DNA of 57,205 nt, counting the filler, from Jimgerdemannia flammicorona (lineage: Eukaryota), in NCBI GenBank assembly GCA_003990765.1. It is 2 parts of 2 records of this genome, joined end to end, with 100 filler letters (N's around TTAATTAATTAA, not from the genome) between each part and the next. Parts side by side here need not be neighbours in the genome. Positions count along the whole stretch, not along the records: positions 28,663 to 57,205 come from RBNJ01000553.1; 1 more part is not named here. The stretch is one strand, 5' to 3'. Each line of letters opens with the position of its first letter. The stretch's first letter is position 1. Made by a program: the position numbers and the translations under genes. Of this stretch, positions 1 through 54,614 are shown in pieces. The notes below the pieces were generated by a model that was not told where the DNA came from, did not search any database, and saw nothing but the letters and a program-made list of their open reading frames with translations.

Positions 1-64
1 TTTATAGTCACGCCGACTTCTCCATTTATTACTAGTCTATTGATAATTACATGCACCCCTCGCA

Positions 65-3724: not shown

Positions 3725-3755
3725 AAGGAAGATTATATAGTTTCAAATGAGTCCT

Positions 3756-5789: not shown

Positions 5790-5870
5790 GATACTAGTAG
5801 CTTATCTCCAGAAACTGTATCGAAAGTGTTGCCAAAAGGTTGTGTAACCTGAATGTTACCGGAGAAAGGC

Positions 5871-6221
5871 TCGTTGACTGTTGAGATTGATTGCTTTACA
5901 CTGTTCAGCAAGTTTTTTTCACTGTTGTGGTGATGATTGAATTGTAACAGTCAATTTGTATAACTTTGAAATAATGTTAGAGCTCTTGTTAGTTTTACTC
6001 CAATCACCAAATAGTTGCATGAGATAATCTTGAGCAGCAAGATTCAGAACATGGGCTTGACACCATATATAATTGTTATTAGTGTCAAAGATTACATTTT
6101 CTTATTGTAGTTTGGTTGCCAAAATGTGGAGAAATGTGATATTGTTGGAGGTGTTGTCTGTTGTGATGGTCAATATCTATATTTCAAAATTTTAATATAT
6201 AGAAAATAATTAATAATTAAA

Positions 6222-11344: not shown

Positions 11345-13186
11345 GAACTCGCTCCTGTTTATTCTTTACACATACCCCCGGCCGCTCCAAATACCCTACT
11401 CCATCGCCTATTTACCACCCCTCTTAACGAAGCTGCTCAAGACATTCTACATCGTTTTCCTCTTCCTTCTTCCGCTCTTCGCCCTGCCGCGTGGGCGCAT
11501 GAGCTCCAGTTGTATCCTGACCCGCGGGTAGCTCAGGCTGCCATCGCCGCTATTACTCAAGGCACCCTTCTCAGCTTTGATGGGCCTCGTCGGCGTCTGC
11601 TGTCCTACAATCATCACTCCGCTCTCGACCACCCGGAAGCGATCACACCTGACATCAAGCGGGAAGTCGCTGCCGGTAGAATTTGTGGCCTGTTCTCATC
11701 CCCTCCGTTCGAATGCTTTCGCTCATCTCCTCTCGGCGCCGTCGCGAAGAAGAATTCTAATAGCGCATGGTGTCGTATTCACGACCTTTCTTGGCCCCGT
11801 CACGGCGATTCGGTGAATGCTGGCATAGATACCGATGCCTTCCGGCTCTCTTACATTAAGTTCGACGAGGCTTTGGACTTGGTTTGTCGTTTTGGCCAGG
11901 GATGTCTTCTATCGAAGGTCGACCTCGCCGATGCATATCATCATATTCTCATCCATCCTACAGATTGGGAGTTGCTGGGTTTCGAGTGGTCAGGGCAGTT
12001 TTATTTCGATCGGTTCGCTCCTTTTGGCGCATCCTCATCACCATTTCTTTTCAACCTTTTGGCGGAACTTCTCGCATGGATCGCCCACCATCATGACATA
12101 TGCGTGCTCATCCACTACGTCGACGATTTTCTCCTTGTTTTGCCGCCATTCCGGCCGTTTGCCCTCTCCGACCTACGTTTACTTCTTGCCATCTGTCGTC
12201 ATCTCGGCTGGTCGATTCAAGAGCCCAAGGTCGAAGGCCCGATAACGTCACTCGTCTTTCTGGGCATTGAATTGGATACAATGGCTATAGAAGTCCGCCT
12301 GCCTCTCGGCAAGCTTGATACGTTGCTCGCCACTCTTCAGCAGTGGCTATCGTGCACATTATGTATATGCCCTCAACTGCAGTCTCTTATTGGTTCCTTG
12401 GCATTTGCCTGTAAAATCATTCTGCCAGGCCGCCCATTCCTGCGGCGGATTATCGACCTTCTTTCCGGCAACACCTTATTCCATATCTCACTGAATGAGG
12501 AATTCTACGCCGACATTCGTTGGTGGCTCGAATTCCTACCCCACTGAAATGGTATTTCCGTTATACATCCGGTGGCATGGTTCCATGAGCCTGATGCACA
12601 ATTATGGACAGACTCTAGCAGGATCCAAGGCTTTGGTGCACATTTCAATAGCGAATGGTTTTCCGCTCCCTGGCCTCCCGATATAGCCTCACGCGACATT
12701 CAGTTCAAGGAACTTTACGCCATGGTCACTGCCGCTGCTACCTGGGGCGCTCAATGGCGTTTTCACCATATATTGCTTCATTCTGATAATCAGGCGGTCA
12801 TTGCTATTATCAACTCGGGCTCTTCACGCAACCCTCTTCTGCTGGAACTTCTCCACCAGCTCTATTTTCAAATGGTGCATCATGCTTTTCAACTTCGCGC
12901 CATATTCATCTCGAAATCCGATAATGGCATTGCTGATGCTTTATCCCACGCTGATATTCCTCGTTTCCGTCGTCTTGCCCCTTACGCTCAGACGCTCCCG
13001 ACCGCGATTGGTATCGTTTGCATTCCGTGCTTCCACCCGTCGTTGCCTTCTTTTTGTGATTCAGACTGGCAAAATCAACGCGCCGCTCATACTCTTCGGG
13101 AAAACGCAGCTTCCTCCAATTCTGCAATCTCCATGGCGGTAATCATGCCTCCGGCAGGCCTTTGCCTGCGTCCGAACTGGTGCTAA
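11345..13186 (+). pseudogene. pol: Ngaro pol: reverse transcriptase plus RNase H; one TGA at 12545
   Basis: SPLGAVAKK, RIHDLS, KVDLADAY, PFGASSSP, HYVDDFL, FLGIELD (RT); WTDSS, KELYA, SDNQAV, ADALS (RNase H). Confidence 0.93.
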
Positions 13187-14595: not shown

Positions 14596-14829
14596 TTGGG
14601 CCAGTCTTTTATACCGTGTGTTTCCACCCAAATACAGAACAATCGATCATTTATTTGAGGTTTCTTTCCTAGGATTTCGGGGTGATGCATGGTCATTTCG
14701 GTGACACGGGGTTATTGGTGTTTTATCATGAAGATTGACATCACGTGAGCGTAGTATAGTTGATATTATGCAAAACGTAGTATAGTTACGCCTCCCTAGC
14801 GTAGATCGACATTACGGCAAAAACATTGA
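14596..14829 (+). repeat. Split direct repeat B1
   Basis: 234 bp, near-identical to 15111-15344. Confidence 0.93.
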
Positions 14830-15110: not shown

Positions 15111-15344
15111 TTGGGCCGGTCTTTTATACCGTGTGTTTCCACCCAAATACAGAACAATCGATCATTTATTTGAGGTTTCTTTCCTAGGATTTCGGGGTGA
15201 TGCATGGTCATTTTGGTGACACGGGGTTATTGGTGTTTTATCACGAAGATTGACATCACGTGAGCGTAGCGTAGTTGACATTATGCAATACGTAGTATAG
15301 TTACGCCTCCCTAGCGTAGATCGACATTACGGCAAAAACATTGA
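15111..15344 (+). repeat. Split direct repeat B2 (element right end)
   Basis: 234 bp, matches B1. Confidence 0.93.
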
Positions 15345-17545: not shown

Positions 17546-20500
17546 ATGGAAATGTGTCCCTCCAAATTCTATGGATATACTACTGAAGAGTCAATCCTGA
17601 TCTTTATTGAAGACTTTGAACAATTTGCCACTGTATGAGCCCTTGGTGTGGATACACAACTGGCCCTTCTACCAGTCAGCCTCAGAGGACCTGCCAGAGA
17701 CAAGTTCAATACAGCCACCATTGCTGATACTGGTGCAGCCAAACTTGCCAACATGAAGGCCTTCCTCAGAACAACATATTATATTGAAGAGATCAAGCAA
17801 GCTCTCAAGGATCAACTCAATACTATCTGCCAGGGACTTAGTGAAGATCCCAACTCATTCTATACCTGAATCTGTAACCAGATTGTCTTGGCTGGCTATG
17901 ATGATGCCCTCAAGAAACAAATAGCAGATTCAACCTTTCTTAAAGGAGTTCACCCTGAAATTGCCCTAGTAATCTGGTCTACTCCAGCTGCACTGACTCT
18001 TGATCAGAAAGTGGTCTTTGCACAGAGATATTGGACTGCCAGACACCCTGCCAAACACTCAATAGAGAAAATAACTGGCATCAAGATGGAGCCATCAAAG
18101 CCAACTAGTATTATATCTGCCACAGTTGTAAACAGACAATCAATCCCACCTACCCCCAAGGTAGCCAAAGCTGACCCAGTGGAAGAACTCATCAAGCAGT
18201 TTGCCAAGATGACTATATACCTTGGTGATGTTGTTAGAGAAGTCCAAAACACCAACAGGAGACTAGTGCAGAGATTTGCAGCTGCTACAGAAAAATACAA
18301 TATTACATATTTCAGATGTGGAGAAGAAGGCCACTATATAAAGAATTGCATGACCAAAACGAGATGCAAGGCCCAACCAAGCAATGCTAGCAGAACCAGA
18401 GAACAAATCAATACAGTAGTCATTGAGGAGATTGGTGACACTAATGATGAAGAATACTATGAGGAGCTTGAATTCCACCCTGTTACTAAAGGTATCAGAA
18501 ACTGGTCCAAGCCCTAAGACAGAAAGAGTAATAGTAAGCCAGTTGGAAGACCAAAGAAGACCCCAGCTATCATCATTCAAAGCAAGACCCAGCCTGAGGA
18601 GATTGATCAAGATATGGAGTTAGATGAAGCTGCCCACCAAATTATTGAAGGCACTACTCAAGTCTCAGGAGAAAGTGAAATCAAGAAGAAACAGAAGCTG
18701 CACAAGACCAAGATCCACCAGTATGATATCTACAAGGACCTCAAGGAACAGAAGGTCAATGCTACCTTTGGACAGCTAGCTGAAGTCCCTACCTTCAGAT
18801 AGCAGTTGAGAGTAGGACTTGCAACTACCACCAAGAATCAAGAATACAAGATTATAGAAGCTCACAATGTACAGGAAGAATCTGAAAACTCAGGTGAAGA
18901 ATCTGAAGACCAGTACAAGACATTAGCCTATACTTCATGTCAGATTGAAGATTGTATCTTTGATGCCATCATTGATACTGGTGCTGGAGGATGCCTCATG
19001 AGCAAGAAGGCAATTGACCACTTAGGCTGGGACATTGAAGATTCCACCAAGATGGTCTATGTTACAGCAGATGGTATACAAGCTCCCCCTTTGGCAAAAT
19101 CTGAGAAGTCCCCATCAAGATAGGAGGAGCTACCATCCAAGTAGACATAATTGTTACTAGTGCCACCAACTATGACATTCTCATTAGCAACCAATGCCTT
19201 CACAGACTAAGGCCATCATTGACCTCAATACCCAGAAGATACAGATCAACTATAGAGGAAGAAAGGTATGAGTCTCTAACAATGTCCACAAAGGAGTCCT
19301 ACCAGATATGGAGGAAGGAGATGAAGAGGACACAGAGGTCTTCATACACTAAGTGAACAAGAACAAGAACAAGACACCCAAGCTCACAGATGAACAGTAG
19401 TACAACAAGATCATTGATGGCTATGCCCCTCAAGGAAGATGCCCCCATGGTACTAAGATATACTGCTCTGAACACCTGAATGACTGCTGGTCCTGTATCA
19501 GTGAAGTCAGGTCAATCAACCAACAGAAACATGAGCAAGAAGCCGCTGAAGCAAAAAGGAAAGCCAAAGAAGATGACCAGCCCCCAGAGCTTCAGGCTGA
19601 CAGTGATGATGAGGAGGAATAAGAATCAGACATCACCCTCAAGGTCAAGAAGTTTCACCCTGAAGCCAAGATCCCAGAATACAAGACTGAAGGAGTCATA
19701 GGAATGGACCTTACCAGCATTCAAGATACTATCCTTGAACCACAGACCACCACCCTACTTGGTACTAGAATTGGAGTCAAGCTGCCAGAGAACCATGCTG
19801 GAATTATCAAGACCAGGAGCAGTCTGGCCAAAAGCAAAATCTCAGTTGAAGGAGGAGTAATTGACCCTGATTACATTGGTGAGATCTTTCTCATAGTCAG
19901 GAATCACAACCCCACCACTCCATTCAAAGTCAAGAAGTATGACAGGATTGGCCAGATGCTGATCCACGAAATCAAGAAGCCCAAGATCATAGAAGCCATT
20001 GAACTCATCAAGAGCAAGAGAGGAGAACAAGGCTTTGGATCTACTGAACAAGGAGCCTATGCTGCCACCAAGATTACTGAACTTGAGCACAAGAAAGATA
20101 AGGACCAGAACAAGCACACATATACCATTGGAGAAAACCTCTCCCTGGAACAACAACTTCTCAAGATCCTGCATCAGAATGAAAGAGTACTTGCTACAGA
20201 CTTCAGAGATATCTACAATTAAGAATCCAAGTACTACTATGAAATTAACACTGGTGATACTAAGCCCATCTACCAGAAAGCCAGACCTATACTACCTGCC
20301 TACAGAGAATGGCTGTGAGCAGAACTCAAGGAAATTGAAGAAGCTGGAATCATCAAGCAAGCTATTAGCCCCTGGGTCTCACCCATTGTTTTTGCCCTAA
20401 AGAAAGGAAGCAAGCCTGGAGAGTTTGTGCCAAGACTCTGCATTGACTACTGGAAGCTCAATGCCATCACCAAGAAGAATAGGCAGCCCTTGCCAAATAT

Positions 20501-21101
20501 TCAAGAAATCCTTACCACCCTTGAAAGCAAAGCCAAATACTACACCACCCTGGATCTGTTCTCAGGCTCCATCAGATTGGTCTCACTCAAGATACCAGTG
20601 AGAAATCAGCCTTCATCACACCTGATGCCACCTATATCTATCTGCGAATGCCATTTGGAATGTACAATGCCTCAGCAAGTTTCCAGCAAATGATGAACAG
20701 AATCTTCAGCAATGAGATTGGAAAATGGCTCTTTGTCTATAGTGATGATATGATCATCTTCAGTAACACTGCATGGGAACATATCAATTACTTTGGCTAG
20801 CCCTCAAGAAGCTCAAGGAGCATGGCCTTTACATCAAGCCCAAGAAATGCAAGTTTGCAGCTAAGAAAATCACCTACCTAGGACACCTCATCAACCAGAC
20901 TGGAATCCACACAGACCCTATGAAGATTGAGACTGTTGTAGCCTATCTGAGATCCAGAACAACCACAGAAGTCCATGCCTTCCTTGGACTGGCTAGCTAC
21001 TATAGAAGATTCATCAAAGGATACTCCAATATTGCAGCACCTATGTATCTATGAGCTACTGAAAAAGGAAACCAAATTTGAATGGACCAAGAAGTACCAA
21101 G
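17546..21101 (+). pseudogene. Gypsy gag-pol (gag with CCHC knuckle, aspartic protease, dUTPase, RT)
   Basis: PSKFYG, (Y)FRCGEEGHYIKNC, AIIDTGA, SPWVSPIV, RLCIDY.KLN, LDLFSG, MPFG, VYSDD, YLGH, FLGLASYYRRFI. Confidence 0.9.
19632..20045 (+). pseudogene. dut: Trimeric dUTPase domain within Gypsy pol
   Basis: All five motifs present: GMDL, RSSLA, GVIDPDYIGE, DRIGQ, RGEQGFGST. Confidence 0.92.
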
Positions 21102-21103
21102 CT

Positions 21104-21167
<64 letters not shown>

Positions 21168-21229
21168 GTCACTTGGACTCTTCCTTTATTATGCCCATCT
21201 ATCCCATATAAGTACAGTGAACCCTCCCC

Positions 21230-24200
21230 CTATCCGATCCCCCTAGGGGGGCCCCCCCTCCTTACTCCTTCTCAATGAAAGACTACTCTGTCTAATACAA
21301 TCTCCACCCTCCCACCACTCTGTTCATATATCCTTGTCATCAAACCTCAATGTTGCCCCCCTGAAGGACCCCAACCTATCCACCATCCAGTCATCAGATC
21401 CCCCAACAGCTCCTCCCACCTTAAAACCTTCTCCTGCAGTCTCACCTGCCACCCCTCCTCAAACACAAAAAGCCAATGTTATGCCAATCCCACCCAAATG
21501 GCTAACACCCACCCAACAGTGAGCCAACTATCACCCACCCCCCCCCACTAGCCAAGATCTCAAGTCCTCCCAGTGGTCTCCCTCTCCTGCTGGCCTACAC
21601 TCCACACCCAGTCTATTCTCTATTTCTGTCCAAAAGTCCCCCAAAACCTCACACTCCCCCAGCCAATGTTCTGGCATCTGCACAATACCCCCAGCTTGCC
21701 CTCTATTGTAACACTCCTCACAATCAAAACAGACACCATCCACCAGATGCCCAGTGTGGAAATTCAACATGATATTCCTCCACAGCATTCACCACCACAC
21801 CACCAAGAACTTGAGAGGACGCCACCACTGTACCTCAGCACTCCAAGACCAGACACCTGCCCAGTCCCACTCCTTACCAATCACTACCACCTGCCAACCA
21901 CTCAGCCAAAGATCCTGGCCAAGACCCTGCTGACACTCCACTCCATCCCCAATATCAAATGTGGTAAGTTGAGCACCCCCCAGGAGCAGTCTATCCCATC
22001 GCCACATACCAGGTCCCCACATCCCCTCCCCCTCACTGCCTTGCCAGCACAGACCAATTTGGTGTGCCCCATCGACCACTTCCCACCAAAAGCCCTTAAA
22101 CTGCAGCTGCTGAATTCCATTGAGTCCTACCAAAGAGGGTAGTTCTCCTGAGGACCCTCAGGGGGAGGTTCTCATCTCCCACACCTTCTGCAGCAGAGGT
22201 ACCCAACCCCCTCATTGCAGTTCAGCCACTCTCTTCAACCACCAGGCTTGCAAGCAATGCAACTGCTTAGGGAAATCCACAAGGCCAAGACCTCCCCTTA
22301 CCACTGGTGTTGCAAGAGTATCCCAACTGATCAGGGACCTCCTCCCTGCCCAAATCCAATCCCTAGCCACCTTTGTCAGCCTCTTCACCACCCAAGCTGG
22401 GAAGTCTAGGTGGTAGGCTACATACCACAGCTGGGGGAACCAGTATACATTCAGAATTGACACCCACCCTGCTAGAGAGATATGGCGGCCTCCCCAACCT
22501 TGAAGGGCCTCCCCCCAAATAGCCACCCTACTCTCCCACCACTCCTGTGGCAAGACAGAACCATACACAGAGAGGAAGATGCTCAGATACTATACCACCC
22601 CACCAGTAGGGACAATTGTACCAATGATGTCCCCACCCACCAGCCTATTCCCTAGCACCATAGTCTCACACTTATACCAGTTGAGCTTTGCCCCAGAGTG
22701 AGCCTCATACCATTCCACTGTCTCCTTAAGTGCCTAGACATCTGCCACAGACCCAAGTCCAACCACCATATCATCTGCAAAGACTCCCACCTTCCACACT
22801 ATTCCATAAATAGAGAGCCCTACTACCTTCTGGCGAATCCTATCCAACAATGGTTCTAATGAAAGGGCATAGAGAATAGGGGACAGGGGGTCCCCCTGAG
22901 GAACTCCTCTTTACAAGAAAAATGCCAGACCATGGTGACCATTATACATCAGTGCTGCCTGACTGCCTTCTAGCAGATTCAACATAGAAGCCCAAAATCC
23001 TGGGGGAACCCCAATATGATCCAACACCTTGCCCAACCAAACCTGCCAGACCCAGTCATAGGCCTTCTTCTGGTCCAAGAAGACCAACCTTCCATCCAGT
23101 CCACAAGTCTGGGCCCCTTCAATGACACCATGCACTCATTCAGTTCCATCTCTTATAAGTCTGCCTCCAACAAAGCCCCACTGCTCCTCCCCCAGCATCT
23201 GTTGGGCAACGTTCTGCAGCCTTGCAACAACCACCTTAGTCACCATCTTTCTGTCCATATCCAGAAGCATAATTGGTCTCCAGTTCTTCCAGTCTTCCCT
23301 CCTCCCCTTGTCTTTGTACAACAAAGCCACCAGCCCAAGGTCCTGCTCTCCAACCCACTCACCACTCTGAAGAACATGATCACAGAGAGCAGTCATCTCA
23401 CCCAAAATGCCAGGGACCTTAACCATCTTCTTCCAAAAGTCCCATGGTAATCCATCCTCCCCTGGTGCTGTCCCAGGTTTAGTTGCTGTGAGGACACTCT
23501 GGACCTCCTCGCCTTGCACTGGTAAGGCCAAGTCACCCAGTCCAGCCACTTGTAGTGGCCTCCATTCCCCTAATGTATTTTCAATTGCTGCCTCATCAGC
23601 ACCCCCTTCTTCCTCACTTCACAAACCCTACCATCTCTCTTTCAACACCCCTAAGATTTGTTGCATGCCATGTACCATGTCCCCATCAGCATCTAGGACT
23701 CCATCCCACCAATGTCTCACCCTCCTAGCTTTAAGCAGACATGATAAATATCTAGTAGGCTGCTCACTCTCCTCAAGCCCCTGCCACCTTAGCCTAGCAG
23801 CCATACCTTGCATATGAGCCTCCTCCTCTTCTCTCAACACCTGTTGCAGTTTCATTATCTCCAATTTAACCTGTACTATCCTCCAATCCTCCACCCAATC
23901 AGAAGTAAGCAGATCTGCCCAATCCATTTGCAGTCTCCTCAACCTGTTGGAAGCACACCCCATGCACTTCCTCCTTCGTCTCCCAGCTTCTCTCCCAGCC
24001 CCTCCCCAATAGACCCTCACAGCCTCTTTCAATCTCATCCAACAGACACCTACTGACAAACCCTCACCCCCCCAGCTAAAAACTTTTACCTGAATGTCCT
24101 CCACCTACAAATCCCACAACCCCTTCTCAGCCAGTAGGGAGGAGTTAAGGCGCCAATGTCCAGGTCCATCTCCACTCTCCCCAAACTGCCGACGTCCCAA

Positions 24201-24879
24201 CAGTCTCCAGTGATCAGACCATGAGCACCACTCCACCTCCAATGCCTTCCAAACATCAGACCCCCAGCATTCTGCCATCAGAATCCAGTCAATCCTTATA
24301 CCCAAGCCATTCACCCAATGTGTGTAGACCCTGGTGTTACCTCATTGTGTTCTGACTATATCCCTTTAAGGAGCTCAGCTGCTCCATCTCCTCCCATGCA
24401 TCCAGACCTCCACTTCTCCCTCCTGCACTCCTCCCACCATCAGTTCTGTCCAGATGCTGATCCCAAACCATATTAAAGTCTCCCCTGAGCACATCAACCC
24501 CTTCCTCCAAGAGAATACCCTCCTCCAGCAGCTCCTTAATCTATGCAATCCTCTTGCCCCTAACCACAGGGCAGTAACAAGAGCCAATCTTCACAGACTC
24601 CCACCCCAGCCAATGCCAATCTCCCATCACCCCAGCTCCCAATACTCCCCAAGTCTCCTCTACCCTTCCTCACCAGAATCACCACTTTTCCAAACCAAGC
24701 AGTAGCCCCCCCCATTCCCAAGTCCACTCTGCCTGATCATCCTCATCCTCACACCAATCATCCTGAAGTAAAAAGAGATTGGTCTCCAATTCCTTGAGCC
24801 AAGTAAAAATGTTCTTATATCACCCAGATCCCCTCAGCCCATTCACATTCAAAGAGAAAATATTGGTTGTACTATTCAT
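21230..24879 (-). pseudogene. LINE copy 2 ORF2 (APE plus RT)
   Basis: MNSTTNIFSLNVNGL start, WSDH, APGEDGLP, WRPIMLL, PQGDPLSP, FADD; ends GPPRGIG*. Confidence 0.9.
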
Positions 24880-24908
24880 AAGAAAATGTTATATCATGTT
24901 CCCACCCT

Positions 24909-26921
24909 CTACAATTCCGCATTCCACTCCTCCTGCAACAAATCCAAGTCATGTTCAGCAGCTAGTTCCCTTTTACCAGCTTCCTGTGCCTCCAGCCCTC
25001 CCAGAAGTTCTACCATCACCCCATCTTCTCACTCCTCAAAGTCCTCATGGTATTCCAGACAGGCCTCCTGCCAGAACCGCAGACCATACCACTCTACCCA
25101 ACAGTATGCTGCCTGCTCACCAGTGACTACCACCAGCTTGGCCTTCCTCACTGCACCAACCTCATATCCCTCCTCCTTCAGGAAAATCTCCCCCTTCAGT
25201 GTCTCCACCACTCCCTCACCATGCAGAATCTGTGCCCAATACTCCTCAGGTATTACCCACAGGTCCACTTCCCCCAAAGTCTCAGCTGCAAGGTTGTCCA
25301 TCACCTTGCTCATCCACAGTAAGTTTCCCACCTCCTTCCCTCCTGGAGTCTCTGGTCTTCCTATGTCCAACATCATGGTGTCAGCCCCTATACTGGCAGC
25401 CTCATCCCACTCATCCTCAGAGACATCCACCAGCTCATCCTTGCCAACTGCCACCACCTGACCCCCTTTTTCCACATCAGGGACCCCAAAGTAGACTTGC
25501 CGGGCCCCCTTCATCAGTATATCCTCTGTTGTCTGTCTCTTTCCAGCTAGGCCCCTTCTGATAAGAGGGGGGGGACTGGCCTCCAGTTCCTGCTCCCAGA
25601 CATCAAAAGTGCCATCAGTATAGGGGTCCTTGCCCAGCATCTTCACAGCTCCTTCCTTGCCTACCTCTACCTCTCCAACCCCTTTACCCACCCAAACACT
25701 GGCTTCAATGCCCCCAGCCACTTCAGCTCCAACAGCCTTCTTCTTTGCCTCTATCTCCATCTCGCCAGTAGCTCCCCCTGCCTCCTATGCCTCTGTGCCC
25801 ACTCCCACTGCTTCCTGTCAGTATGGACATACTTCCCATCCACAACCACCAGATGCATTGATGCCTCGTATATCTTCCTTCTCTTCACAGCTCTACTCAA
25901 CTCCTCCAGCGCCTCCAACAAGTCCTCCTCCTCCTCTTAACTCCCCTTCACCCTCGCCACCTTACAGATGAATACCCCCACATCAGCACAGAAGGCCAGT
26001 CACTCATCTTCCCCATGGCCTCCTTGCCTGCCAGCCAAATCCTGACATCTATGTCACCTATCCTGATCATTGTACCCTCCTATACCTAAAAGCCGATGTC
26101 CACCACATCACCATACTCTATCATCACCTCCTCTACCCTCCTCCTAGTCTCCTCCTTAGTTACTGTGGGCACCCCCCTCACCAGAACTGCACCACCCTGG
26201 AGTCTCATCATAAGTACCACACCATGGAGACCACCTCCTCCCCAACTACTACTCTAGTCTTCAGTGTCTTGTCTGGTGGGCCTGCCTCCTCAAAGCCCAC
26301 CTCAACCCCCTCCAGATCCTTCAAGAACTTCACTGAGGCTGCCCCAGCCACCTGCTTCGAAACAAGCCCCAGAACCATCCTCACCATCACTGCCAAGCCC
26401 TGGAAGCACAAGGTTGCTACAAACTCCGAAATTGACTTCTTGAGCAATGGGGCCACTGCCAGTCCTGTTACACCATCTGCCAGGTCCCCCTTCCTCATTG
26501 GGAACCCCTGTCCCCCCTGACCATCAGCTATCACATCTCTTTTTTTTTCCTCCTGATTCACCATCACACCACCATCAGCAGTCCCACCACTACCCCCAGC
26601 AGCTACTCCACCTCCACCACTTCCCACTACCAAAGGCCCAGCTCCCCCAGTACTCCCAACCTTCTTCTTCCCCTTCCCACCTGTCTTTCCACCATGATCC
26701 CCAACGGGCCAATCTCCTGACCTCAGCATGTCCACAAAGCTCCTCCCCTGCTGCCCTCCAGCCCCCCCACCAGTGCCACTTCCACTACCCAAGCTGTCCT
26801 GCCCATCTGGGCCACCAAAAGACCCTATCCCCAGTCTATACCCTCTTCCGACATGCTGCCAGTCGAAGGCCCCAGGTCCACCCAACCTAGTATGCATGTC
26901 AGCTTGCTTGCTGGTTGACAT
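24909..26921 (-). pseudogene. LINE copy 2 ORF1
   Basis: GGPGAFDWQ and DLADGVTGLAVAPLLKKSISEF are shared with copies 1 and 3. Confidence 0.85.
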
Positions 26922-27003
26922 TGTCTTAATATCTTTCTCCAATAAATGACTCGAAAGTGTGTTATAAAAGTGTGTGTAACGTGAATTGTATTGGAGAAAG
27001 ATG

Positions 27004-27304
27004 AGTACCAAGAAACCTTCAATGAACTCAAAACCAGGTTGATGCAAGTACCTATCCTCAGAAGACCAGATTGGAACCTAGAATTCATCCTGCAGACAGA
27101 TGCAAGAGCTGTAGGACTTAGAGCAGTCCTAGCTCAGAAGAAAGATGGACATGAATATGTCATCTCCTATGCAAGTGGAGGTACCTGTGGAGCAGAACAG
27201 AACTATGAGTCATGCAAGCTTGAATGCTTAGCAGTAGTTTGGGCAGTAGACAATTTCCACTACCACCTAGCTGGAAACACTTCACTATTGAAACAGATCA
27301 TTCC
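27004..27304 (+). pseudogene. Gypsy RNase H fragment
   Basis: PILRRPDW..FILQTDA..AVLAQ..ISYAS..AEQNY..LECLAVVWAV..FTIETDHS. Confidence 0.9.
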
Positions 27305-28562
27305 CATCTTTCTCTGGTAACATTCAGGTTACACAAGACTTAGACAACACTTTCTACAACGTTTTTGGTGTCCAACGACTAACAACATGGACAGCAACGA
27401 TCGATCTGGTGAGCGTACTGGCCAGGGGGGTGGCGGCGCCTTTGGCTGGCAGCAGGTGGGGAGGAGGGGAGATGGTTTGGGGATGCCAGGGGCCTCGATG
27501 GCTAGCTGGGGCCCCAGCGGCGGAGGGAGGGGAGGTCTGAGACAGAGAGGAGGGGAGAGGACGACCTTTGCTGACAAGGTCAGAATGGGGGCGATGGCTT
27601 CTGGGCTGGATAGTTGGCTGGGCCTGGGGAAGGCGTCGATGGCTACTACCGGGGGTCAAGGAGGTGCACCCCAGGGTGCTTCTGGTGGTAGGGAAGAGGC
27701 TGGAGTAGGGGCTGGAGATGTGATGGTTGATGGAGCTGTGACTGGGGATCTGGCAAAAAATCCAGATGTGATGGCAGTTGGCAATTTGGGACTTGGAGTG
27801 GGCACGAGGCCTGGGGACCTGGCGGATGGGGTGACGGGCATGGTGTCGGCCCCGTTACTCAAGAAATCGAGGTCCGAATTTGCGGTCACAATGTGCTTCC
27901 AGGGCTTGGCAGTGACGGCAAGGATGATTTTGAGGCTGGTGGCACAGGAGGCTAGGGGAGCAGCATCGGTGAAGTTTTTGAGGGGGAAGGAAGGGGTTGA
28001 AGTGGGGTTCGAGAAAGAAGATGCCTTGTTGGCAGCCATGGAAAAGGGGGTGATGGTTGGCGGGGTTGTGGTCCCTATGGCTCGGTGTATGCGCTGGGAC
28101 CCCCGGGTGGTGCAGTTGACAGTGTTGGACCTCCCTACGGTGTCGAAGGAAAGGACCAGGGAGTTGGTTGTAGAGGCGATTAAGGAGTATGGCGAGATTG
28201 TGGACATGGGGTTCAAGGTCTGGGAGGGCATGGAGCTTAGAACTGGAGACGTCGATGTCAGGGTGAGACTGGCTGGAAAGGAGAATACGGGGAAGTCGAG
28301 GGACTGGCCAGCAGCGCTGAGGTGGGGACAAGTAGAGTGTAAGGTCGCTAGGGTGAAGGGGACTCAGGAGGAGGAGGAGGACTTGCTGGAAGTGCTGGAG
28401 GACCTGGAAGGGGCTGTTGCAAGGAGGAGATTAGCCTGGAAGGAGTTCGAGGCCAGGACGGTGGTGGGAGAGGTGGATGGGAAGAGGGTTCGGATGGAGA
28501 AAGGGGCCTGGGAGAAGATGCAGGGGAGGAGGATTCAGTAGGAGTTGTTGGCAAAGTTGGAC
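27305..28562 (+). mobile_element. LINE copy 3 (5' end and ORF1), youngest copy, runs into the assembly gap
   Basis: Starts CATCTTTCTC like copy 2, interrupts Gypsy RNase H directly after TDHS, and retains CpGs. Confidence 0.9.
27387..28541 (+). CDS. LINE ORF1 N-terminal 384 codons (TAG at 28539 is probably premature)
   Basis: Open frame homologous to ORF1 of copies 1 and 2, whose homology continues past this stop. Confidence 0.8.
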   Translation: MDSNDRSGERTGQGGGGAFGWQQVGRRGDGLGMPGASMASWGPSGGGRGGLRQRGGERTTFADKVRMGAMASGLDSWLGLGKASMATTGGQGGAPQGASGGREEAGVGAGDVMVDGAVTGDLAKNPDVMAVGNLGLGVGTRPGDLADGVTGMVSAPLLKKSRSEFAVTMCFQGLAVTARMILRLVAQEARGAASVKFLRGKEGVEVGFEKEDALLAAMEKGVMVGGVVVPMARCMRWDPRVVQLTVLDLPTVSKERTRELVVEAIKEYGEIVDMGFKVWEGMELRTGDVDVRVRLAGKENTGKSRDWPAALRWGQVECKVARVKGTQEEEEDLLEVLEDLEGAVARRRLAWKEFEARTVVGEVDGKRVRMEKGAWEKMQGRRIQ

Positions 28563-28662
28563 NNNNNNNNNNNNNNNNNNNNNNNNNNNNNNNNNNNNNN
28601 NNNNNNTTAATTAATTAANNNNNNNNNNNNNNNNNNNNNNNNNNNNNNNNNNNNNNNNNNNN
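28563..28662. other. 100-bp assembly gap with TTAATTAATTAA six-frame stop linker
   Basis: N44-TTAATTAATTAA-N44. Confidence 0.97.
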
Positions 28663-30258: not shown

Positions 30259-33200
30259 ATGTCCAACCCGACCCGTCTACAGGACATACTAGCCCGACTC
30301 AAGCCCTTCGAACTCCTGCACAGAGACCACCAAACTGAAATCTTAGCCTGGAAGAAAGATTATTCTGAATACGACCAAGAACTTCATGCCTGCCTTGACA
30401 CCTTGGCCGTGCCGCAGCTGGCACCATACCTTGTCTGGATTCCGCACAACCAGTTATATGATTTTAAACAACTCGCCAAAGGCGGGTTTGCTAAAGTTTA
30501 CAAGACCAAAGTTGTTTTGAAGTCAGCATGGTACCATGTGGCCGCCAAAGAATTGAAATTGATGATGGTTGAAGAGGTGAGTTTGGGTTGACGTGATATA
30601 CCTATATTTTCCACATCTACACAATATAATTATCAATAATCTCACTATATTTTCACTTCATCAATGCAGTTAGTGCTGAATGTCTATTTGAGTCGCTGCG
30701 GAAATAACACTAAAAATGCCCCTATAATGGATATTATTGCTGTATCACAATACCCTGAAACCAAAGAGTATCTGATGATTATGCAATTCGCTGATATCGG
30801 TACTCTTGAGAAGCAGCCGTGCGAACAAGATGGTGATTGGTATACAGCTTTCACATATGCCATAAAACTTGCCAGCCGTTTAGCCAGTCTCCACGATATG
30901 GGATTCAGCCATAAGGACCTCCATCCAGGAAACGTGGTATTCCACAAGTCTCACACCGCACTCCTGATCGATGTCGGCCTTAGTCAAGCTGTAGAAAATG
31001 CAAATTCCGTGAAAGGCGTCTATGGTCGACCGGCATACTTCCCTCCAGAGATCTTTAAGGAAAAACAATATACACAGAGATCAGATGTCTACTGCTTGGG
31101 AACTCTGTTGTGGCAATTGATCGTTGGCGTTCCACCACAAGACAACACAATGGCGGCCATTGCCAGAAATCCTGATGGTCTTCGAGAGGAGCTAATTTCT
31201 GGTGCACCCACAACGTTTAACGACATCATCCGGAACTGTTGGCACGTCGAACCCAATGAGCCTAGTGCTCATAAAGTCTACTATCAATTGTTAGAATGTG
31301 CAGCCAGTTTAGTCAGTATTCCTTTCGTCTGGAAACCAAACACAGAAGATCGAATTTTACGAGAGCTTGCAATTACGCCGATTCCTTTTTCACTTGAGAT
31401 GCAATCATTTATCAAGGCAAGACGGATCACCCATCAGCAAGAGCTGAAATCTATAAACGACAGCAAAACCTTCGAATTTGTAGATGGACAGAGTGCAGAC
31501 AACACTGGAAGTAAATTTTACACTCACCTACAACTCCAAGAAATTACTGAAGAGTACTCACAGTTGATGCTTTTTACTCTTGTACAACAAGGAAATCCAG
31601 GTTAATAGTATTACAGATCTCAGAGTGTTCTTGTATATGATATATTTATTTATTTATTAGTAGGCTTTTATGCTCTTGATTTATATCGTATTTATCAGAC
31701 TATAATAATATGTTATATATATTAATTTTCAATTTATATTTAGAGAAGAGGATTAGACCAAACCGGATTTTAATCAGTATATTATAATATATAAACTATT
31801 GTTAGCTATTGTTCATAAATTCATATTTATAATTTAATTATATTTGATTCATTTATAGAAAGAAGAACTGGTGATAAAATTACTTATAACAAGGAGAGCG
31901 ATATTCAAGCAGAGGTTCAGAAGTTGGGCGAGTTAGATCTCTCAGGTATAATTGATGAGTGTAAACTATTATTTACAGAAAATCAAATACACACTCTATA
32001 TATATACTTACTTCTGTCAATATTCAGAAAAGTGCAAGTATATGAAAGATATTGGAAGACGAAATTTGATCAAATTTCTGGAGCAGAATACAAACGTGAC
32101 CAAGCTCAATCTCAGCAGTGAGTCGGAATTATCTGAATTATTAGTTTTGTAGATATGGTATAGAAGTAAGTTGTAATTCAGATATACTCACATCTTCTTA
32201 TTAAATTTAGAAAACGGAATTGGCATTCTGTTTACTCGTACATTGGCAGAGTTTCTGAAGCAGAATGTAACTTTGACCACTCTTAATTTTCAAGGTATAC
32301 TAGAACAGTATAAATCATTGACCTAAACAGAATGATAAAATATAGCTCACAACTTTTACTTATTTTCTCACTCTCTATTCATCTTTAGAAAATAACATTG
32401 GTATTGAGGGAGCAAATACTCTTGCTGATTCTCTAAAGCAGAATATAACTCTAACTGAGCTGAATCTCTATGGTATGTCAGAATTGTATAAAATATTATA
32501 TATAGTTATTTAACAGAATTATATTTATAATCTATACATATTTATTTATTTTAAAGGTAATAGTATTGGTGATAAAGGAGTATATGCTTTAGCTATATCT
32601 TTGAAGCAAAATACAACTTTAATAGAACTAAATCTTGGAGGTATGTTGAGATTATATAAATTGTTATATAATTATATTATTAATAAAGCTTATAATTTAT
32701 ATATATTTATCTATTTCTCATTTATTTTAAAGGCAATAGTATTGGTCATGAAGGAGCATATGCTCTTGCTGAATCTCTGAAGCAAAATAGAAATTTGATC
32801 AAGTTGAATCTCAGATGTATGTTTGAACTATATTAAGTATTATATAAGTATATATGTATAATGAAATTAAGCTCACATTTTACTCAATTATTATTTATTT
32901 TAAAGATAATAGTATTGGTGATGAAGGAGTACAAGCTTTAGCTGAATCTTTAAAACAGAATATAACTTTGATTGAGCTAAATCTTGGAAGTATGTCAAAA
33001 CTATATAAAGTATAGTATATTATTATATAATTAAATGAAGGTTATAATATATATTTACTTATTTATTATTTATTTTTAAAGATAATAACTTTAGCTATCA
33101 AGGAGCATATGTCTTAGCTGAATCTCTGAAGCAAAACTCAACCTTAATAGAGTTAAATCTCTCTTGTAAGTTAGAACTATATATATAAAGTATTATATAT

Positions 33201-33350
33201 AAATATATAATATATAAAACTAACAATATATATTCTTTTTTTTTTTTTAAAAAAAAAAAAAAGATAATAATATTAATCATAAGATTATATATACTATAGC
33301 AAAATCTTTAAAGCAAAACAAGATCTTAACTATATAAGCTAAACTTTAAT
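30259..33350 (+). CDS. TKL-type protein kinase followed by, and probably spliced to, ribonuclease-inhibitor-class 28-aa LRR exons; 3' end decayed
   Basis: Exon 30259-30576 (AKGGFAKVY, AAKEL) and exon from 30670 (HKDLHPGN, IDVG, PPE, SDVYCLG). Phase-1 exons 31744-31776, 31859-31945 and 32028-32117 follow, then six 84-nt exons. Confidence 0.8.
32211..33165 (+). repeat. Six 84-nt LRR exons (NxIGxEGAxxLAESLKQNxTLxELNL), each flanked by AG/GT
   Basis: 32211-32294, 32389-32472, 32557-32640, 32733-32816, 32906-32989, 33082-33165; a degenerate seventh starts at 33264. Confidence 0.92.
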
Positions 33351-33499
33351 AATATATCAGAACTTTATAAAATTAAATATAAAGAAATTTAAGAGTTTTA
33401 TTAAATATAGCTATTATTGATATATTCAAAGATATTTAATAATTTTAAATACTATTATAAATATATTTATCTATTAGTTTTTTTTTAAAAAAAATATAG

Positions 33500-40200: not shown

Positions 40201-40957
40201 AGTATCATTACAGGATCTCCGGAAATCACAAAATTGTGGAAAATTTCTTTGCTGGCTTTCATGGCGAGCTGATGGCAAGCAACAAGCAGTGCACCAAATG
40301 TAATGACTAGAAGAAATTATTATGATACTGTTGTTATCGGCAATTGATCCAGAAATTGGCTTAGATAATGAACATGGCTTTAGAATGTTGCCCCACCTGA
40401 TAGTCTACATGTTTTTTCCTGTTGGCCTGGTCGGCAGCCTGGTCGTCTTCAGTTTGGGGCTCACAGCTCTCCCACACATTGACGAAACGGAAAGCTGACA
40501 GCCCCAATAGAGTATCCAGGCCGATCATTGTACTTACAGCGCCTCCCAAGCTGTGGCCTGTGATGATGCAGGGAAAATTCTTGAGGCACATCCGGATGAT
40601 GTCCACGGGTACGGTCTTGGCCTGGTCAAAGAAATTTTTGTGAATGTGTGCACTGAGATTGCCGGCGAAAGTGTTGATGATGGTGCAGTCAGCCATACCC
40701 TCGAAAATATTGTCAGTTCCACGGAATGTGAAATATATGGTGGGTTCCTCAGCTTCTACTCGTCGCGCGATGCCCATGAGCATGTGCTGCCGAACTTCCA
40801 TCTTCGTGCCATCGTACACTGGCTGAGATTCAACAACTTTCACAACGACAAGGGACATGGCACATCGGCCTCTTTGTTTCTCAAAAGTCTCAATCGGGTT
40901 GTCTTCGTACGCCAGGCGTGATAGGATTGCGGCGTTGGTGAAGACCTCCAATGACAT
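37201..40957 (-). pseudogene. Multi-exon lipase class 3 / hydrophobic segment / P-loop GTPase fusion gene, apparently disrupted
   Basis: LSRLAY, FRGT, ITGHSLGG (lipase_3). GVVGGSRMG/KST spans intron 38132-38209 (G1), IIDFPG (G3), LVCLT*AD (G4-like, TAG at 37758-37760). Frame breaks lie between about 39400 and 40360. Confidence 0.68.
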
Positions 40958-41241
40958 TGCAAAATTGATGTGGGTTGTTGGAAGGACGTTTTTCCAAGCA
41001 AACGAGAGATAACCAAGTCACGGCCAACTTGTTTCAGTTCCCATCTGGTTATTTGGGGCGTGCTGCAATAAACCCAGACAAAGTGAACATGCAACATCAC
41101 TCAGGCATTAGGCTCAAAGATTTATTTTCACTCATGCTTTATCTGTAAATTCTTAATTATTCAATATCTACCACATAAAATGATTACAGTAAGTAGTCCA
41201 AAGAGATAACCTAATGCTCTTTGCTTTCATGCTTCTCTTCT

Positions 41242-53174: not shown

Positions 53175-54600
53175 TAGTACTTCCAAATGAATTAAATCAA
53201 TTCAAATTAAATTGAATTAAGGGTAATTTGAATTAAATCAAATTAAAGATTTTTTAATTTATTTATTATTCAATATAATATATTCAGTACTTGTGATACT
53301 TGCTCAATATATTCTACTTGTCTGATATATTCTACTTACTTAATATATTTCACTTACTCAATACATTCCACTCACCTAATATATTCTACTTACTGATATA
53401 TTCTACTTATCTAATACTCAATACCTAGTAGTATATTTGACTATAGTAATAGCCAATTGATAGGAATTGTCATAAGTTATTTTTTTCAAATACAGATTAG
53501 GAATTAATAAATTCAACTTCTGGCAAATTTTAAGAAGGATATCATAAGTCTTCTTATATTATTTGTAATTATTACAACTAGTCTGAGGATGGCCTCTTGG
53601 CTTTGAGATTGCTGAGATAACTGAGACTATAGGGGCTAGAGCTGGGGGGGCCAGAGTGATGACCAGGACTAGGGTGATGATCAGGGCCAGGGTGATGACT
53701 AGAGCTGGAGGAGTAATCAGAGCAACAACTAGAGCTGGAGTGATGACTGGAGCTAGAAAGATGACTGGAGCAGCTAAGAGGGTCAGGACAATAGTCAAGA
53801 TAAATTACTCAATCACATTATTAATTATTTTTTTCTTTTTTTTATATTTATTTTAAGTAGTATCAATTTTATCAATTATGTACCACCCAAATAGATATTT
53901 TATCAATTGTATAGTTCATATCTTTGAAATAATTTAAGAGATAGTTGAGATAAGCTTGAATATATATTTTATTTTCTTTTTATTAAGTTTTTTATTTTTT
54001 TATTTTTTTATTAAAGATAGTAGTCTAGATAGCTTATTTATATATTTTTAATACCAGACCAATAAGCAAACTCTGAGAGCTTCATAAGCCATAGTGATAT
54101 AATTAAAGCTTTAAATATAGTTGAGAGCTGTAGTGATACAATTAATGAGCAAGTCCTGAGAGCTTCAAATATGGTGCCAAGAGCATAAGTAAGCTAGAAG
54201 CTAAAGCTATAGTGATATAATTAATGAGTAAGCTCTGAGAGCTTTAAATATGGTGCCAAGAGTATAAATAAGTCAGAAGATACATAGTACTAAAAGCTAT
54301 AGTAATGCAATTAATGAGCTAACCTTAAGAACTTTGAATATAATAGTATATATATTAGAAATTATATTCAAATATTATAATATAGATATATTTATTTAGT
54401 ATTTTTAGATTAAACTATATGTTAAGATATTTTGACTATATTTTAAGATTTTGAGATTTATTAGCTTATTACTATATCTTTAAACACATATATTTACAAA
54501 TTGTTTCAAAGTCTAAAGTACCTCTTTTAGGTACTATAAGATCTTAATCTCTTGAAAAAACTCTCTCTATAAGTGTACTTATTACTGGGATAGCTAAATA
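53175..54600. mobile_element. AT-rich decayed DNA-transposon-like relic with internal minisatellites (right boundary uncertain)
   Basis: Begins TAGTACTTC plus TTCAAA/TTGAA motifs like the hAT end at 7640. Tandem repeats at about 53285-53420, 53630-53790 (18 bp) and 54065-54340 (about 78 bp). Confidence 0.45.
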
Positions 54601-54614
54601 GTTACATGCTCTCT

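What the first reader, a model, noticed from the sequence alone, without database searches (positions are those of the whole stretch)
30259..33350. Kinase linked to a one-exon-per-repeat LRR array, an immune-receptor-like architecture in a fungus
Seen: six exact 84-nt exons, all bounded by phase-1 introns, each encoding one 28-aa RI-class LRR. They are reachable in frame from the kinase via phase-1 exons of 33, 87 and 90 nt. The introns resemble each other, indicating tandem exon-plus-intron duplication. Known: 84-nt single-LRR exons typify animal NLRs such as NOD2 and NLRC3, whereas fungal NLR sensors mostly use TPR, WD40 or ankyrin repeats. Inference: any exon can be skipped, duplicated or shuffled without frameshift, giving a diversifiable intracellular sensor kinase.
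Basis: partly seen in the sequence, partly recalled or inferred. Interest (0 to 1): 0.72.

Follow-up and report, generated by a model that had tools for sequence, protein, structure and literature searches.

The report
Fungal kinase gene with exon-per-repeat LRRs
A gene of an Endogone-like soil fungus joins a protein kinase to a tail of leucine-rich repeats, each on its own 84-base exon; relatives share the design, but nothing shows it is an immune sensor, and here the splice site joining the two halves is weak.

Summary
Six 84-nt AG..GT exons (32211-33165), all phase 1-1, each encode one 28-aa RI/NLRC3-type LRR. With an 87-nt exon, a 90-nt exon and a terminal exon they read in frame from the kinase. 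The model is a 2004-nt, 667-codon ORF without internal stop, collinear and 52% identical with a 769-aa kinase+LRR_6 protein annotated in Endogone sp..

A soil-metagenome relative (L003) has GTAAGT at the homologous junction. Phase-1 LRR exons of 54, 84, 90 and 84 nt follow it. The architecture is therefore ancestral to an Endogonales-type family.

- There is no NOD domain, so this is not an NLR.
- dN/dS between repeats is 0.18-0.36, which is purifying selection.
- Intron similarity is limited to four introns.
- The window's junction donor is GTTAAT, against GTAAGT or GTATGT in 3 of 3 relatives.

No RNA data could be laid, so a kinase-only product ending at TAA 31603 stays possible. The kinase ORF is broken in three of four metagenomic relatives, which suggests gene birth and death. 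One-exon-per-LRR kinases are already described in brown algae. Verdict: a real, uncharacterised variant of moderate interest.

The parts
30259..30576 (+). Exon 1: ATG, conserved N-terminal extension, and kinase N-lobe (G-loop KGGFAKV, beta3 Lys in VAAKELK). Donor GAG|GTGAGT, phase 0.
   Evidence: Aligns to P0001 residues 4-~105. Donor read.
30577..30669 (+). Intron 1, 93 nt, GTGAGT..CAG, phase 0.
   Evidence: Gap in the tblastn alignment to P0001 at this place. Sequence.
30670..31600 (+). Exon 2: kinase core (HKDLHPGN, DVG, PPE) plus a family-specific C-terminal extension of about 110 aa.
   Evidence: Pfam Pkinase 1.3e-21 and PK_Tyr_Ser-Thr 1.1e-20. 57-63% identity to Endogone and metagenome relatives.
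31601..31606 (+). Kinase-to-LRR junction donor CAG|GTTAAT, phase 1. The read-through stop TAA lies at 31603-31605.
   Evidence: Homologous position carries GTAAGT in L003 and L001 and GTATGT in L002. It is the only donor of 10 in the gene with +3 T.
31744..31776 (+). Candidate 33-nt phase-1 exon (KRIRPNRILI). Unsupported and optional for the frame.
   Evidence: Open with AG/GT bounds. No counterpart in P0001 or L003.
31859..31945 (+). 87-nt phase-1 exon, a degenerate first LRR ending in GELDLS.
   Evidence: Ends like P0001 ..STELDLS in the collinear alignment. Splice sites.
32028..32117 (+). 90-nt phase-1 LRR exon (KCKYMKDIGRRNLIKFLEQNTNVTKLNLS).
   Evidence: L003 has a 90-nt exon at the same rank, followed by an 84-nt exon. 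tblastn to P0001 residues 491-517.
32211..32294 (+). LRR exon R1, 84 nt, phase 1-1.
   Evidence: Resembles the L003 exon NRIGVLLVRILAEALKRN.. and P0001 NNFGTLLCRTLAGSL...
32389..32472 (+). LRR exon R2, 84 nt, phase 1-1.
32557..32640 (+). LRR exon R3, 84 nt, phase 1-1, GC3 0.07.
   Evidence: LRR_6 half-match E 2.7e-4.
32733..32816 (+). LRR exon R4, 84 nt, phase 1-1.
32906..32989 (+). LRR exon R5, 84 nt, phase 1-1, 83% identical to R3.
33082..33165 (+). LRR exon R6, 84 nt, phase 1-1.
33264..33337 (+). Terminal exon: a truncated last LRR (NNINHKIIYTIAKSLKQNKILTI) and stop TAA at 33335-33337.
   Evidence: tblastn to P0001 LRRs. Completes the 667-codon ORF. P0001 also ends inside a last repeat..QNMILTQLIL.
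32397..33183 (+). Tandem exon-plus-intron array: period 176 nt (4.5 copies), with a higher-order 349-nt two-unit duplication over 32542-33182.
   Evidence: TRF. Intron identities 71-77%.

Best explanation
The locus is one gene of an uncharacterised family found in Endogonales-type Mucoromycota fungi. It encodes a soluble protein kinase of non-RD type (HKD). The kinase has conserved N- and C-terminal extensions and is fused at its C-terminus to about nine ribonuclease-inhibitor/NLRC3-type leucine-rich repeats.

Shown:
- The kinase-then-LRR order, the phase-1 junction and the one-exon-per-repeat layout are shared with relatives, so they are ancestral.
- The array grew by tandem duplication of exon+intron units, most recently a two-unit 349-nt block.
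- Since then the repeats have evolved under purifying selection. Synonymous sites and introns drifted to extreme AT-richness.

Inferred:
- The LRR horseshoe is a protein- or ligand-binding module. It either holds the kinase inactive until bound or brings it to its substrates.
- In this copy the junction donor is weakened. The gene probably gives a mix of a kinase-LRR product (spliced) and a kinase-only product (intron retained, stop at 31603), or it is at an early stage of losing the fusion.
For: - Kinase: Pfam Pkinase 1.3e-21. The catalytic Lys, HxD Asp, Asn, DVG Asp and PPE Glu are present and conserved in alignment A1.
- Fusion in relatives: P0001 of Endogone sp., 769 aa, has its kinase at 135-311 and LRR_6 at E 1.3e-33 C-terminal to it. 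L003 has ACAG|GTAAGT at the homologous codon, then phase-1 exons of 54, 84, 90 and 84 nt that encode LRRs. L001 and L002 carry GTAAGT and GTATGT at the same spot. ORF calls on 6 further relatives stop one residue after the same Gly.
- Window model: 2004 nt, 667 codons, no internal stop, 341 of 657 aligned residues identical to P0001 and collinear. The other 9 donors are GT[AG]NNN and all acceptors are AG.
- Spliced LRR part: the 250-aa LRR domain hits LRR_6 proteins at up to 3.7e-57. It hits P0001 at 6.5e-41 and fish NLRC3 at about 1e-36.
- Selection: GC at codon positions 1+2 stays at 0.33-0.41 in R1-R6 while GC3 falls to 0.07-0.11 in R3 and R5. dN/dS between repeats is 0.18-0.36 in 12 of 12 computable pairs. 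Kinase against L001 gives dN/dS 0.16. The window's branch is 0.33 against a median of 0.38.
- Duplication.
- Solubility: the highest 19-residue Kyte-Doolittle mean is 1.25 in the window model and 1.36 in P0001. I take this to be below the usual transmembrane threshold, a value I recall rather than computed.
Against: - No transcript evidence was obtained.
- The junction donor GTTAAT departs from consensus at +3 and +5, and TAA TAG follow at once.
- The window kinase lacks the subdomain-XI Arg that 13 of 14 aligned sequences have.
- Three of four metagenomic relatives (L002, L003, L004) have frameshifts or stops in the kinase. Decay is therefore common in this family, and L003 itself is a broken copy.
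- Fused status in Endogone rests on an automatic gene model that I could not check against DNA or RNA.
- The LRR part is most similar to a Jimgerdemannia MYND+LRR_6 protein (52%). P0001 ranks only 31st of 263 hits. LRR similarity alone does not tie the array to the kinase.
- The ligand-binding and regulation steps are inference only.
Confidence: 0.65

Rival explanations
1. In this genome the fusion is already lost. The donor mutation makes the kinase terminate at TAA 31603. The LRR exons are then a recently orphaned relic, or are expressed on their own from the in-frame ATG inside the 90-nt exon as an RNI-like LRR protein.
For: - The donor reads GTTAAT, against GTAAGT or GTATGT in 3 of 3 relatives.
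- The subdomain-XI Arg is lost.
- The family shows frequent pseudogenes, with 3 of 4 loci broken.
- Stand-alone RNI-type LRR proteins form a mostly Mucoromycota cluster in the Atlas (a lead only).
- The 90-nt exon holds an in-frame Met.
Against: - Nine LRR-region exons stay open with canonical splice sites in DNA of 8-28% GC introns.
- dN/dS is 0.18-0.36.
- The exon side of the junction is a perfect CAG|GT.
- Two other donors in the gene also have +5 A.
- There is no separate N-terminal head or evident start upstream of the 87-nt exon.
Confidence: 0.25
2. This is the first reader's reading: a diversifiable intracellular immune sensor kinase. Exon skipping, duplication and shuffling of the symmetric LRR exons would generate recognition variants, by analogy with animal NLRs or the brown-algal LRR-ROCO and LRR-kinase genes.
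For: - All LRR exons are 1-1 and of equal length.
- Unit duplication did occur.
- Repeat number differs from P0001, about 9 against about 12 by eye.
- The kinase is non-RD in 10 of 13 family members read. The link between non-RD kinases and innate immunity is recalled from Dardick and Ronald 2006 and was not seen here.
- The gene sits among transposons, and the family shows birth and death.
- The same LRR type is joined to other heads: MYND in Jimgerdemannia and NACHT in unnamed eukaryotic contigs.
- Precedent: Zambounis 2012, PMC3341825 (passages).
Against: - No NOD domain is present.
- Repeats are under purifying selection, not diversifying.
- The duplications are old, with dS of 0.43 or more.
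- The beta-strand motif ELNL is almost invariant.
- There is no evidence of alternative splicing, of paralogue number or of allelic repeat variation, because no genome or RNA was at hand.
Confidence: 0.12
3. Kinase and LRR array are two unrelated neighbouring genes, and the in-frame continuity is chance.
For: A stop lies right at the end of the kinase ORF. The best LRR match is a non-kinase protein.
Against: - The same adjacency, strand, phase and junction codon are seen in L003.
- The fused P0001 is collinear from end to end.
- The 90-nt then 84-nt exon order is shared.
- Only 253 nt separate the stop from the 87-nt exon.
Confidence: 0.04

Closest known systems
Endogone sp. FLAS-F59071 hypothetical protein BC937DRAFT_86469 (P0001, 769 aa)
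   Same: Same domain order, with N-terminal extension, kinase, C-terminal extension and RI-type LRRs. It is 52% identical over 657 aligned residues and collinear. It ends inside a truncated last repeat.
   Different: It has a longer acidic, Asn-rich linker and about 12 repeats against about 9 (counted by eye). It is uncharacterised, and I could not inspect its exon structure.
Brown-algal (Ectocarpus) LRR-ROCO and LRR-kinase candidate receptors (Zambounis et al. 2012, PMC3341825, passages seen)
   Same: One LRR per exon, exons of equal length that keep the frame, and a cytosolic signalling domain attached. The authors proposed exon shuffling. The genes show birth and death.
   Different: Their exons are 72 nt and encode 24-aa LRRs of another class. 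The authors call the exons 'phase 0'. LRR position relative to the kinase was not checked in that paper. Positive selection was reported there, whereas here dN/dS is below 1.
Animal NLRC3/NOD2-type NLRs and ribonuclease inhibitor
   Same: 28-aa RI-class LRRs. The P0001 LRR hits RI at 5.3e-29, chain 5irm_A at 2.6e-26 and NLRP chains. I recall 5irm as rabbit NOD2; the table calls it 'Uncharacterized protein'. The window's spliced LRR hits fish NLRC3 at about 1e-36. The 84-nt phase-1 exon layout of those animal genes is recalled and was not verified.
   Different: There is no NACHT/NOD and no CARD or PYD. The head is a kinase.
Other eukaryotic kinase+LRR_6 proteins (P0093 of the diatom Skeletonema, plus P0119, P0135, P0141, P0150 whose organisms I did not establish)
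   Same: They combine Pkinase with LRR_6 repeats in soluble proteins.
   Different: In 5 of 5 the LRRs are N-terminal to the kinase. Here and in P0001 the order is reversed, so this is probably an independent fusion.
Fungal LRR+kinase proteins listed by Soanes and Talbot 2010 (PMC2939053, passages seen; Table S8 not seen)
   Same: They are fungal proteins with both domains and no transmembrane helix.
   Different: Those are four Batrachochytrium genes and five intron-less ascomycete genes that resemble bacterial LRR-kinases. This gene is intron-rich and of RI type. Whether the Batrachochytrium ones are related was not tested.

Membership tests
Eukaryotic protein kinase superfamily (Pfam PF00069/PF07714) | Significant match to the kinase domain profile | tested here: met
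   Exon 2 scores Pkinase 77.6 bits (cut-off 31.7) and PK_Tyr_Ser-Thr 74.5 bits (cut-off 23.1).
Eukaryotic protein kinase superfamily (Pfam PF00069/PF07714) | Catalytic residues: beta3 Lys, HxD Asp, catalytic-loop Asn, DxG Asp, APE Glu | tested here: met
   Read from the translation: VAAK, HKDLHPGN, DVG, PPE. Motif numbering is recalled.
Eukaryotic protein kinase superfamily (Pfam PF00069/PF07714) | Subdomain XI Arg that pairs with the APE Glu | tested here: not met
   The window has a one-residue gap where 13 of 14 aligned sequences have R (alignment column 372). This does not remove it from the superfamily, but it may lower stability or activity.
RI-like / LRR_6 leucine-rich repeats (PF13516) | Tandem 28-29-aa repeats LxxLxLxxNxIGxxGaxxLaxxL that match the profile | tested here: met
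   Single exons reach only 21.2 bits against a cut-off of 23.4, because the profile spans the exon boundary. The spliced 250-aa domain hits LRR_6 proteins at up to 3.7e-57. The homologue P0001 scores LRR_6 at 112.8 bits.
NOD-like receptors (NLR / STAND) | Central NACHT or NB-ARC NTPase domain | tested here: not met
   No such Pfam hit in the window's exons or in P0001 at E of 1e-5 or better. The whole protein is accounted for by kinase, extensions and LRRs.
NOD-like receptors (NLR / STAND) | C-terminal superstructure-forming repeat sensor domain | tested here: met
   About nine C-terminal LRRs.
Plant/oomycete-type LRR receptor kinases | N-terminal extracellular LRRs, one transmembrane helix, C-terminal kinase | tested here: not met
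   The order is kinase then LRR. The highest 19-residue hydropathy is 1.25 in the window model and 1.36 in P0001. I take this as no transmembrane helix; the threshold is recalled. No signal-peptide predictor was run.
ROCO / LRRK kinases | Roc GTPase plus COR domain between LRR and kinase | tested here: not met
   No Roc or COR Pfam hit in P0001 or in the window exons.
Exon-per-repeat shuffling receptors (Ectocarpus type) | Each repeat on its own exon of constant length with symmetric phase | tested here: met
   Six 84-nt 1-1 exons. L003 has the same layout.
Exon-per-repeat shuffling receptors (Ectocarpus type) | Signs of diversifying selection or exon exchange between loci | tested here: inconclusive
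   Pairwise dN/dS is 0.18-0.36, but on only 27 codons per pair and without a site model. Exchange between loci is not testable without the genome.

The most novel reading that the evidence does not exclude
Endogonales, mycorrhiza-forming Mucoromycota, may possess a NOD-less class of cytosolic LRR receptors. An RI-type LRR cassette built from shuffle-ready 84-nt exons would be wired directly to a non-RD kinase, and in paralogues to other heads such as MYND. The family would turn over by birth and death in transposon-rich DNA. It would serve non-self or symbiont sensing, and would be an exception to the reported absence of LRR-based receptors in fungi.
Probability: 0.12. Interest if true: 0.7.

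Novelty: new variant of a known kind. Interest (0 to 1): 0.45.

Why it matters
Surveys of fungal immune-type receptors report no LRR sensors (Dyrka 2014; Soanes and Talbot 2010; passages). Those surveys rest mostly on Dikarya.

This locus, its Endogone homologue and soil-metagenome relatives show that an early-diverging mycorrhizal lineage carries RI/NLRC3-type LRR cassettes joined to signalling heads. The one-exon-per-repeat layout is the one seen in brown-algal candidate receptors.

If the protein proves to be a sensor, it would widen the known repertoire of fungal recognition systems. It would also give a simple case of a receptor wired directly to a kinase. If not, it is one more lineage-specific kinase with a protein-binding tail.

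The gene is also a clear example of coding sequence held by selection inside strongly AT-drifting DNA. GC3 falls to 0.07 while GC at codon positions 1+2 stays near 0.4.

Tried and rejected
- Whole genome: none is held for the window, so paralogue counts were impossible.
No transcript evidence exists either way.
- The search of protein representatives with P0001: all but one of the 150 listed hits matched only the LRR part, most of them long multi-LRR proteins. It told nothing about kinase-LRR fusions.
- Earlier findings of the scan: three look-ups were blank.
- 33-nt exon: it is open and well bounded, but has no counterpart in P0001 or L003. I keep it as optional only.
- Alternative phase-1 donors upstream, 31493 (GTGCAG) and 31511 (GTAAAT): rejected as main donors because they would delete the conserved SKF.T..L segment.
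- Kinase subfamily from the PDB: no close family. The best E is about 1e-13, spread over PknB-like, SGK1, FAK, DLK, CSK and TAK1.
- Literature on a fungal kinase to RI-LRR fusion: nothing describing it turned up.
- Literature on 84-bp LRR exons in animal NLRs: no usable passage, so that point stays recalled.
- Structure prediction and complex prediction: not run. They could not settle the splice question, and only one sequence has both domains.
Full report
**Observation**

The region was read directly and scanned by script. Six AG..GT-bounded segments of exactly 84 nt are open in phase 1: 32211-32294, 32389-32472, 32557-32640, 32733-32816, 32906-32989 and 33082-33165. Their spacing is 168-178 nt. 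In 2000 shuffles of 32118-33400 the count of such segments averaged 0.19 and never exceeded 3.

Each exon encodes xNxIGxxGAxxLAxSLKQNxTLxELNLx. Upstream lie phase-1 exons of 87 nt (31859-31945) and 90 nt (32028-32117). A terminal exon (33264-33337) ends in TAA. A 33-nt candidate (31744-31776) is open but optional.

The kinase has two exons, 30259-30576 and 30670-31600. Intron 1 is phase 0 with donor GTGAGT. This is a small correction to what I first assumed.

Joined by coordinates without the 33-nt exon, the model is 2004 nt and 667 codons with no internal stop.

**What the parts are**

- Exon 2 is a protein kinase: Pkinase 1.3e-21 and PK_Tyr_Ser-Thr 1.1e-20.
- The catalytic residues are present: VAAK, HKDLHPGN, DVG and PPE. 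The HxD motif is non-RD (HKD).
- One oddity is that the window lacks the subdomain-XI Arg present in 13 of 14 aligned sequences.
- Single LRR exons hit Pfam LRR_6 only over profile positions 13-24, at 21.2 bits against a cut-off of 23.4. The 24-residue profile straddles the exon boundary.
It matches P0001 at 6.5e-41 (rank 31 of 263 hits) and fish NLRC3 at about 1e-36.
- The P0001 LRR part hits ribonuclease inhibitor (5.3e-29), chain 5irm_A (2.6e-26) and NLRP chains in the PDB. I recall 5irm as rabbit NOD2.
- No NACHT, NB-ARC, Roc or COR was found.
- Peak 19-residue hydropathy is 1.25 in the window model and 1.36 in P0001. I take that as no transmembrane helix; the threshold is recalled.

**Relatives**

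The best long relative is an annotated Endogone sp. FLAS-F59071 protein, P0001 of 769 aa. Its kinase lies at 135-311 and LRR_6 repeats lie C-terminal to it. The window model aligns with it collinearly, with 341 of 657 residues identical.

Other named kinase relatives are from Endogone and Jimgerdemannia at 35-47% identity. Atlas look-alikes of the kinase are mostly Mucoromycota clusters (a lead only). The window is therefore most likely from an Endogonales-like fungus. No hit exceeded 63% over most of the query (73% in the best segment of L003).

ORF calls on short metagenome contigs end one residue after the same Gly where the window ORF stops: GK*, GV*, GM* and GT*. DNA of three such loci explains this. 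The homologous codon is split by ACAG|GTAAGT in L003, TTAA|GTAAGT in L001 and CTAG|GTATGT in L002.

In L003 the donor is followed by phase-1 exons of 54, 84, 90 and 84 nt that encode LRRs. The 90-then-84 order and the IG.L..R.LAE.L motif match the window's 90-nt exon and R1. The kinase-to-LRR junction and the exon-per-repeat layout therefore predate the divergence of these copies.

**Growth and selection**

- Exons R3 and R5 are 83% identical.
- The introns after R2-R5 are 71-77% identical in 6 of 6 pairs, with shuffle maxima of 0.64-0.67. The remaining 22 intron pairs lie near background.
- TRF reports period 176 (4.5 copies) and period 349 (1.8 copies, 79% matches). The latter is a two-unit block duplication.
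- dN/dS between repeats is 0.18-0.36 in 12 of 12 computable pairs, and 3 of the 15 pairs had saturated dS. dS is 0.43 or more, so the duplications are not recent.
- GC3 falls along the gene from 0.56 in exon 1 to 0.07-0.11 in R3 and R5, and intron GC falls to 0.08-0.13. GC at codon positions 1+2 stays at 0.33-0.41 in R1-R6. Coding constraint has evidently held while the DNA drifted towards AT.
- Kinase against L001 gives dN/dS 0.16, with dS saturated.
- The window's branch in the kinase tree is 0.33, against a median of 0.38.

**The weak point**

The window's junction donor reads CAG|GTTAAT and is followed by TAA TAG. Of the gene's 10 donors it alone has +3 T. The other nine have A in 7 and G in 2. 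At +5, A occurs in two others.

No RNA could be examined.

Three of the four metagenomic loci have damaged kinase ORFs:
- L002 has two frameshifts.
- L003 has a frameshift, a stop and a deletion of about 20 aa.
- L004 has a stop and a frameshift.

Decay is therefore common in this family, and L003 documents ancestry rather than function. I put about 0.65 on the window copy still producing, or having very recently produced, a kinase-LRR protein. I put about 0.25 on an already uncoupled kinase-only gene with an orphaned or independently used LRR array.

**Mechanism**

Shown:
- The domain content and order.
- The lack of a transmembrane helix and of a NOD domain.
- An intact catalytic motif set.
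- Purifying selection on both halves.

Inferred:
- The RI-type horseshoe binds a protein or small ligand. It either restrains the kinase or targets it.
- The weak donor could yield both a long and a short isoform.

**Comparison with known systems**

- It is not an NLR, because it has no NOD domain.
- It is not a plant-type LRR receptor kinase, because the order is reversed and there is no membrane span.
- It is not a ROCO kinase.
- Among the 120 listed LRR relatives of P0001, 7 carry kinase Pfam domains. In the 5 where my scan found both domains, besides P0001, the LRRs are N-terminal. The kinase-first order looks like a separate fusion.
- By my count by eye, about 40 of the 120 carry NACHT. 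A Jimgerdemannia protein joins MYND to the same LRR type and is the best match of the window's LRR part.
- The nearest published concept is the Ectocarpus LRR-ROCO and LRR-kinase set, with one 72-nt exon per 24-aa LRR (PMC3341825, passages; also mentioned in PMC13449251).
- Dyrka 2014 found no LRR in fungal NLRs (PMC4986451, passages).
- Soanes and Talbot 2010 list only a few fungal LRR+kinase proteins: four in Batrachochytrium, and five ascomycete genes that are intron-less and bacteria-like (PMC2939053, passages; Table S8 not seen).
- My searches found no description of this fungal kinase to RI-LRR family.
- The 84-nt exon layout of NOD2 and NLRC3 is recalled only. The searches and the passages gave nothing.

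**Verdict**

The locus is a real and correctly described gene structure. It is a member of an uncharacterised Endogonales-type kinase-LRR family. The immune-sensor reading is unproven, and this copy's junction is doubtful. Interest is moderate.

Noticed in passing
window 1-6000, 21100-27100 (direct), 27300-28500 and 54600-57200 (inverted): A repeated element of about 6 kb with 50-54% GC and a very strong strand skew, with GC skew about -0.5 (+0.3 to +0.47 for the inverted copies). Copies are 71-77% identical. Its long ORFs have no Pfam hit. It brackets the AT-rich island that holds the kinase-LRR gene.
   Followed up: partly
window 11345-13186 and 19623-20222; repeats 14596-14829 / 15111-15344: Retroelement remains: RVT_1 (1.2e-11), RNase H-like RVT_3 (5e-4) and a dUTPase ORF (2.6e-27). 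Nearby lies a 234-nt direct repeat pair at 97% identity.
   Followed up: partly
window 30259-33337: There is a steep composition gradient inside one gene. GC3 is 0.56 in exon 1 and 0.07-0.11 in LRR exons R3 and R5. Intron GC falls from 0.30 to 0.08. Amino-acid-determining positions keep their GC.
   Followed up: yes
L002, L003, L004 (metagenome loci): Three of four soil-metagenome relatives of the kinase carry frameshifts and/or in-frame stops, and L003 also has a deletion of about 20 aa. The family seems rich in pseudogenes.
   Followed up: partly
P0109 (Jimgerdemannia flammicorona, 457 aa): A MYND zinc finger joined to the same LRR_6 type is the best match of the window's spliced LRR part (52% over 215 aa, E 3.7e-57). 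In Endogonales this LRR cassette occurs with different heads.
   Followed up: partly
window ~28545-28660: A run of N (88 in the window) forms a scaffold gap between two inverted copies of the GC-rich element. The local arrangement there may be an assembly join.
   Followed up: no
window 40361-41017 (- strand): An ORF with a class-3 lipase match (Lipase_3, 4.2e-7), probably one exon of a neighbouring gene.
   Followed up: no
window 33237-33262: The last intron ends in a run of about 13 T directly followed by about 14 A before the acceptor AG. This is an unusual acceptor context.
   Followed up: no
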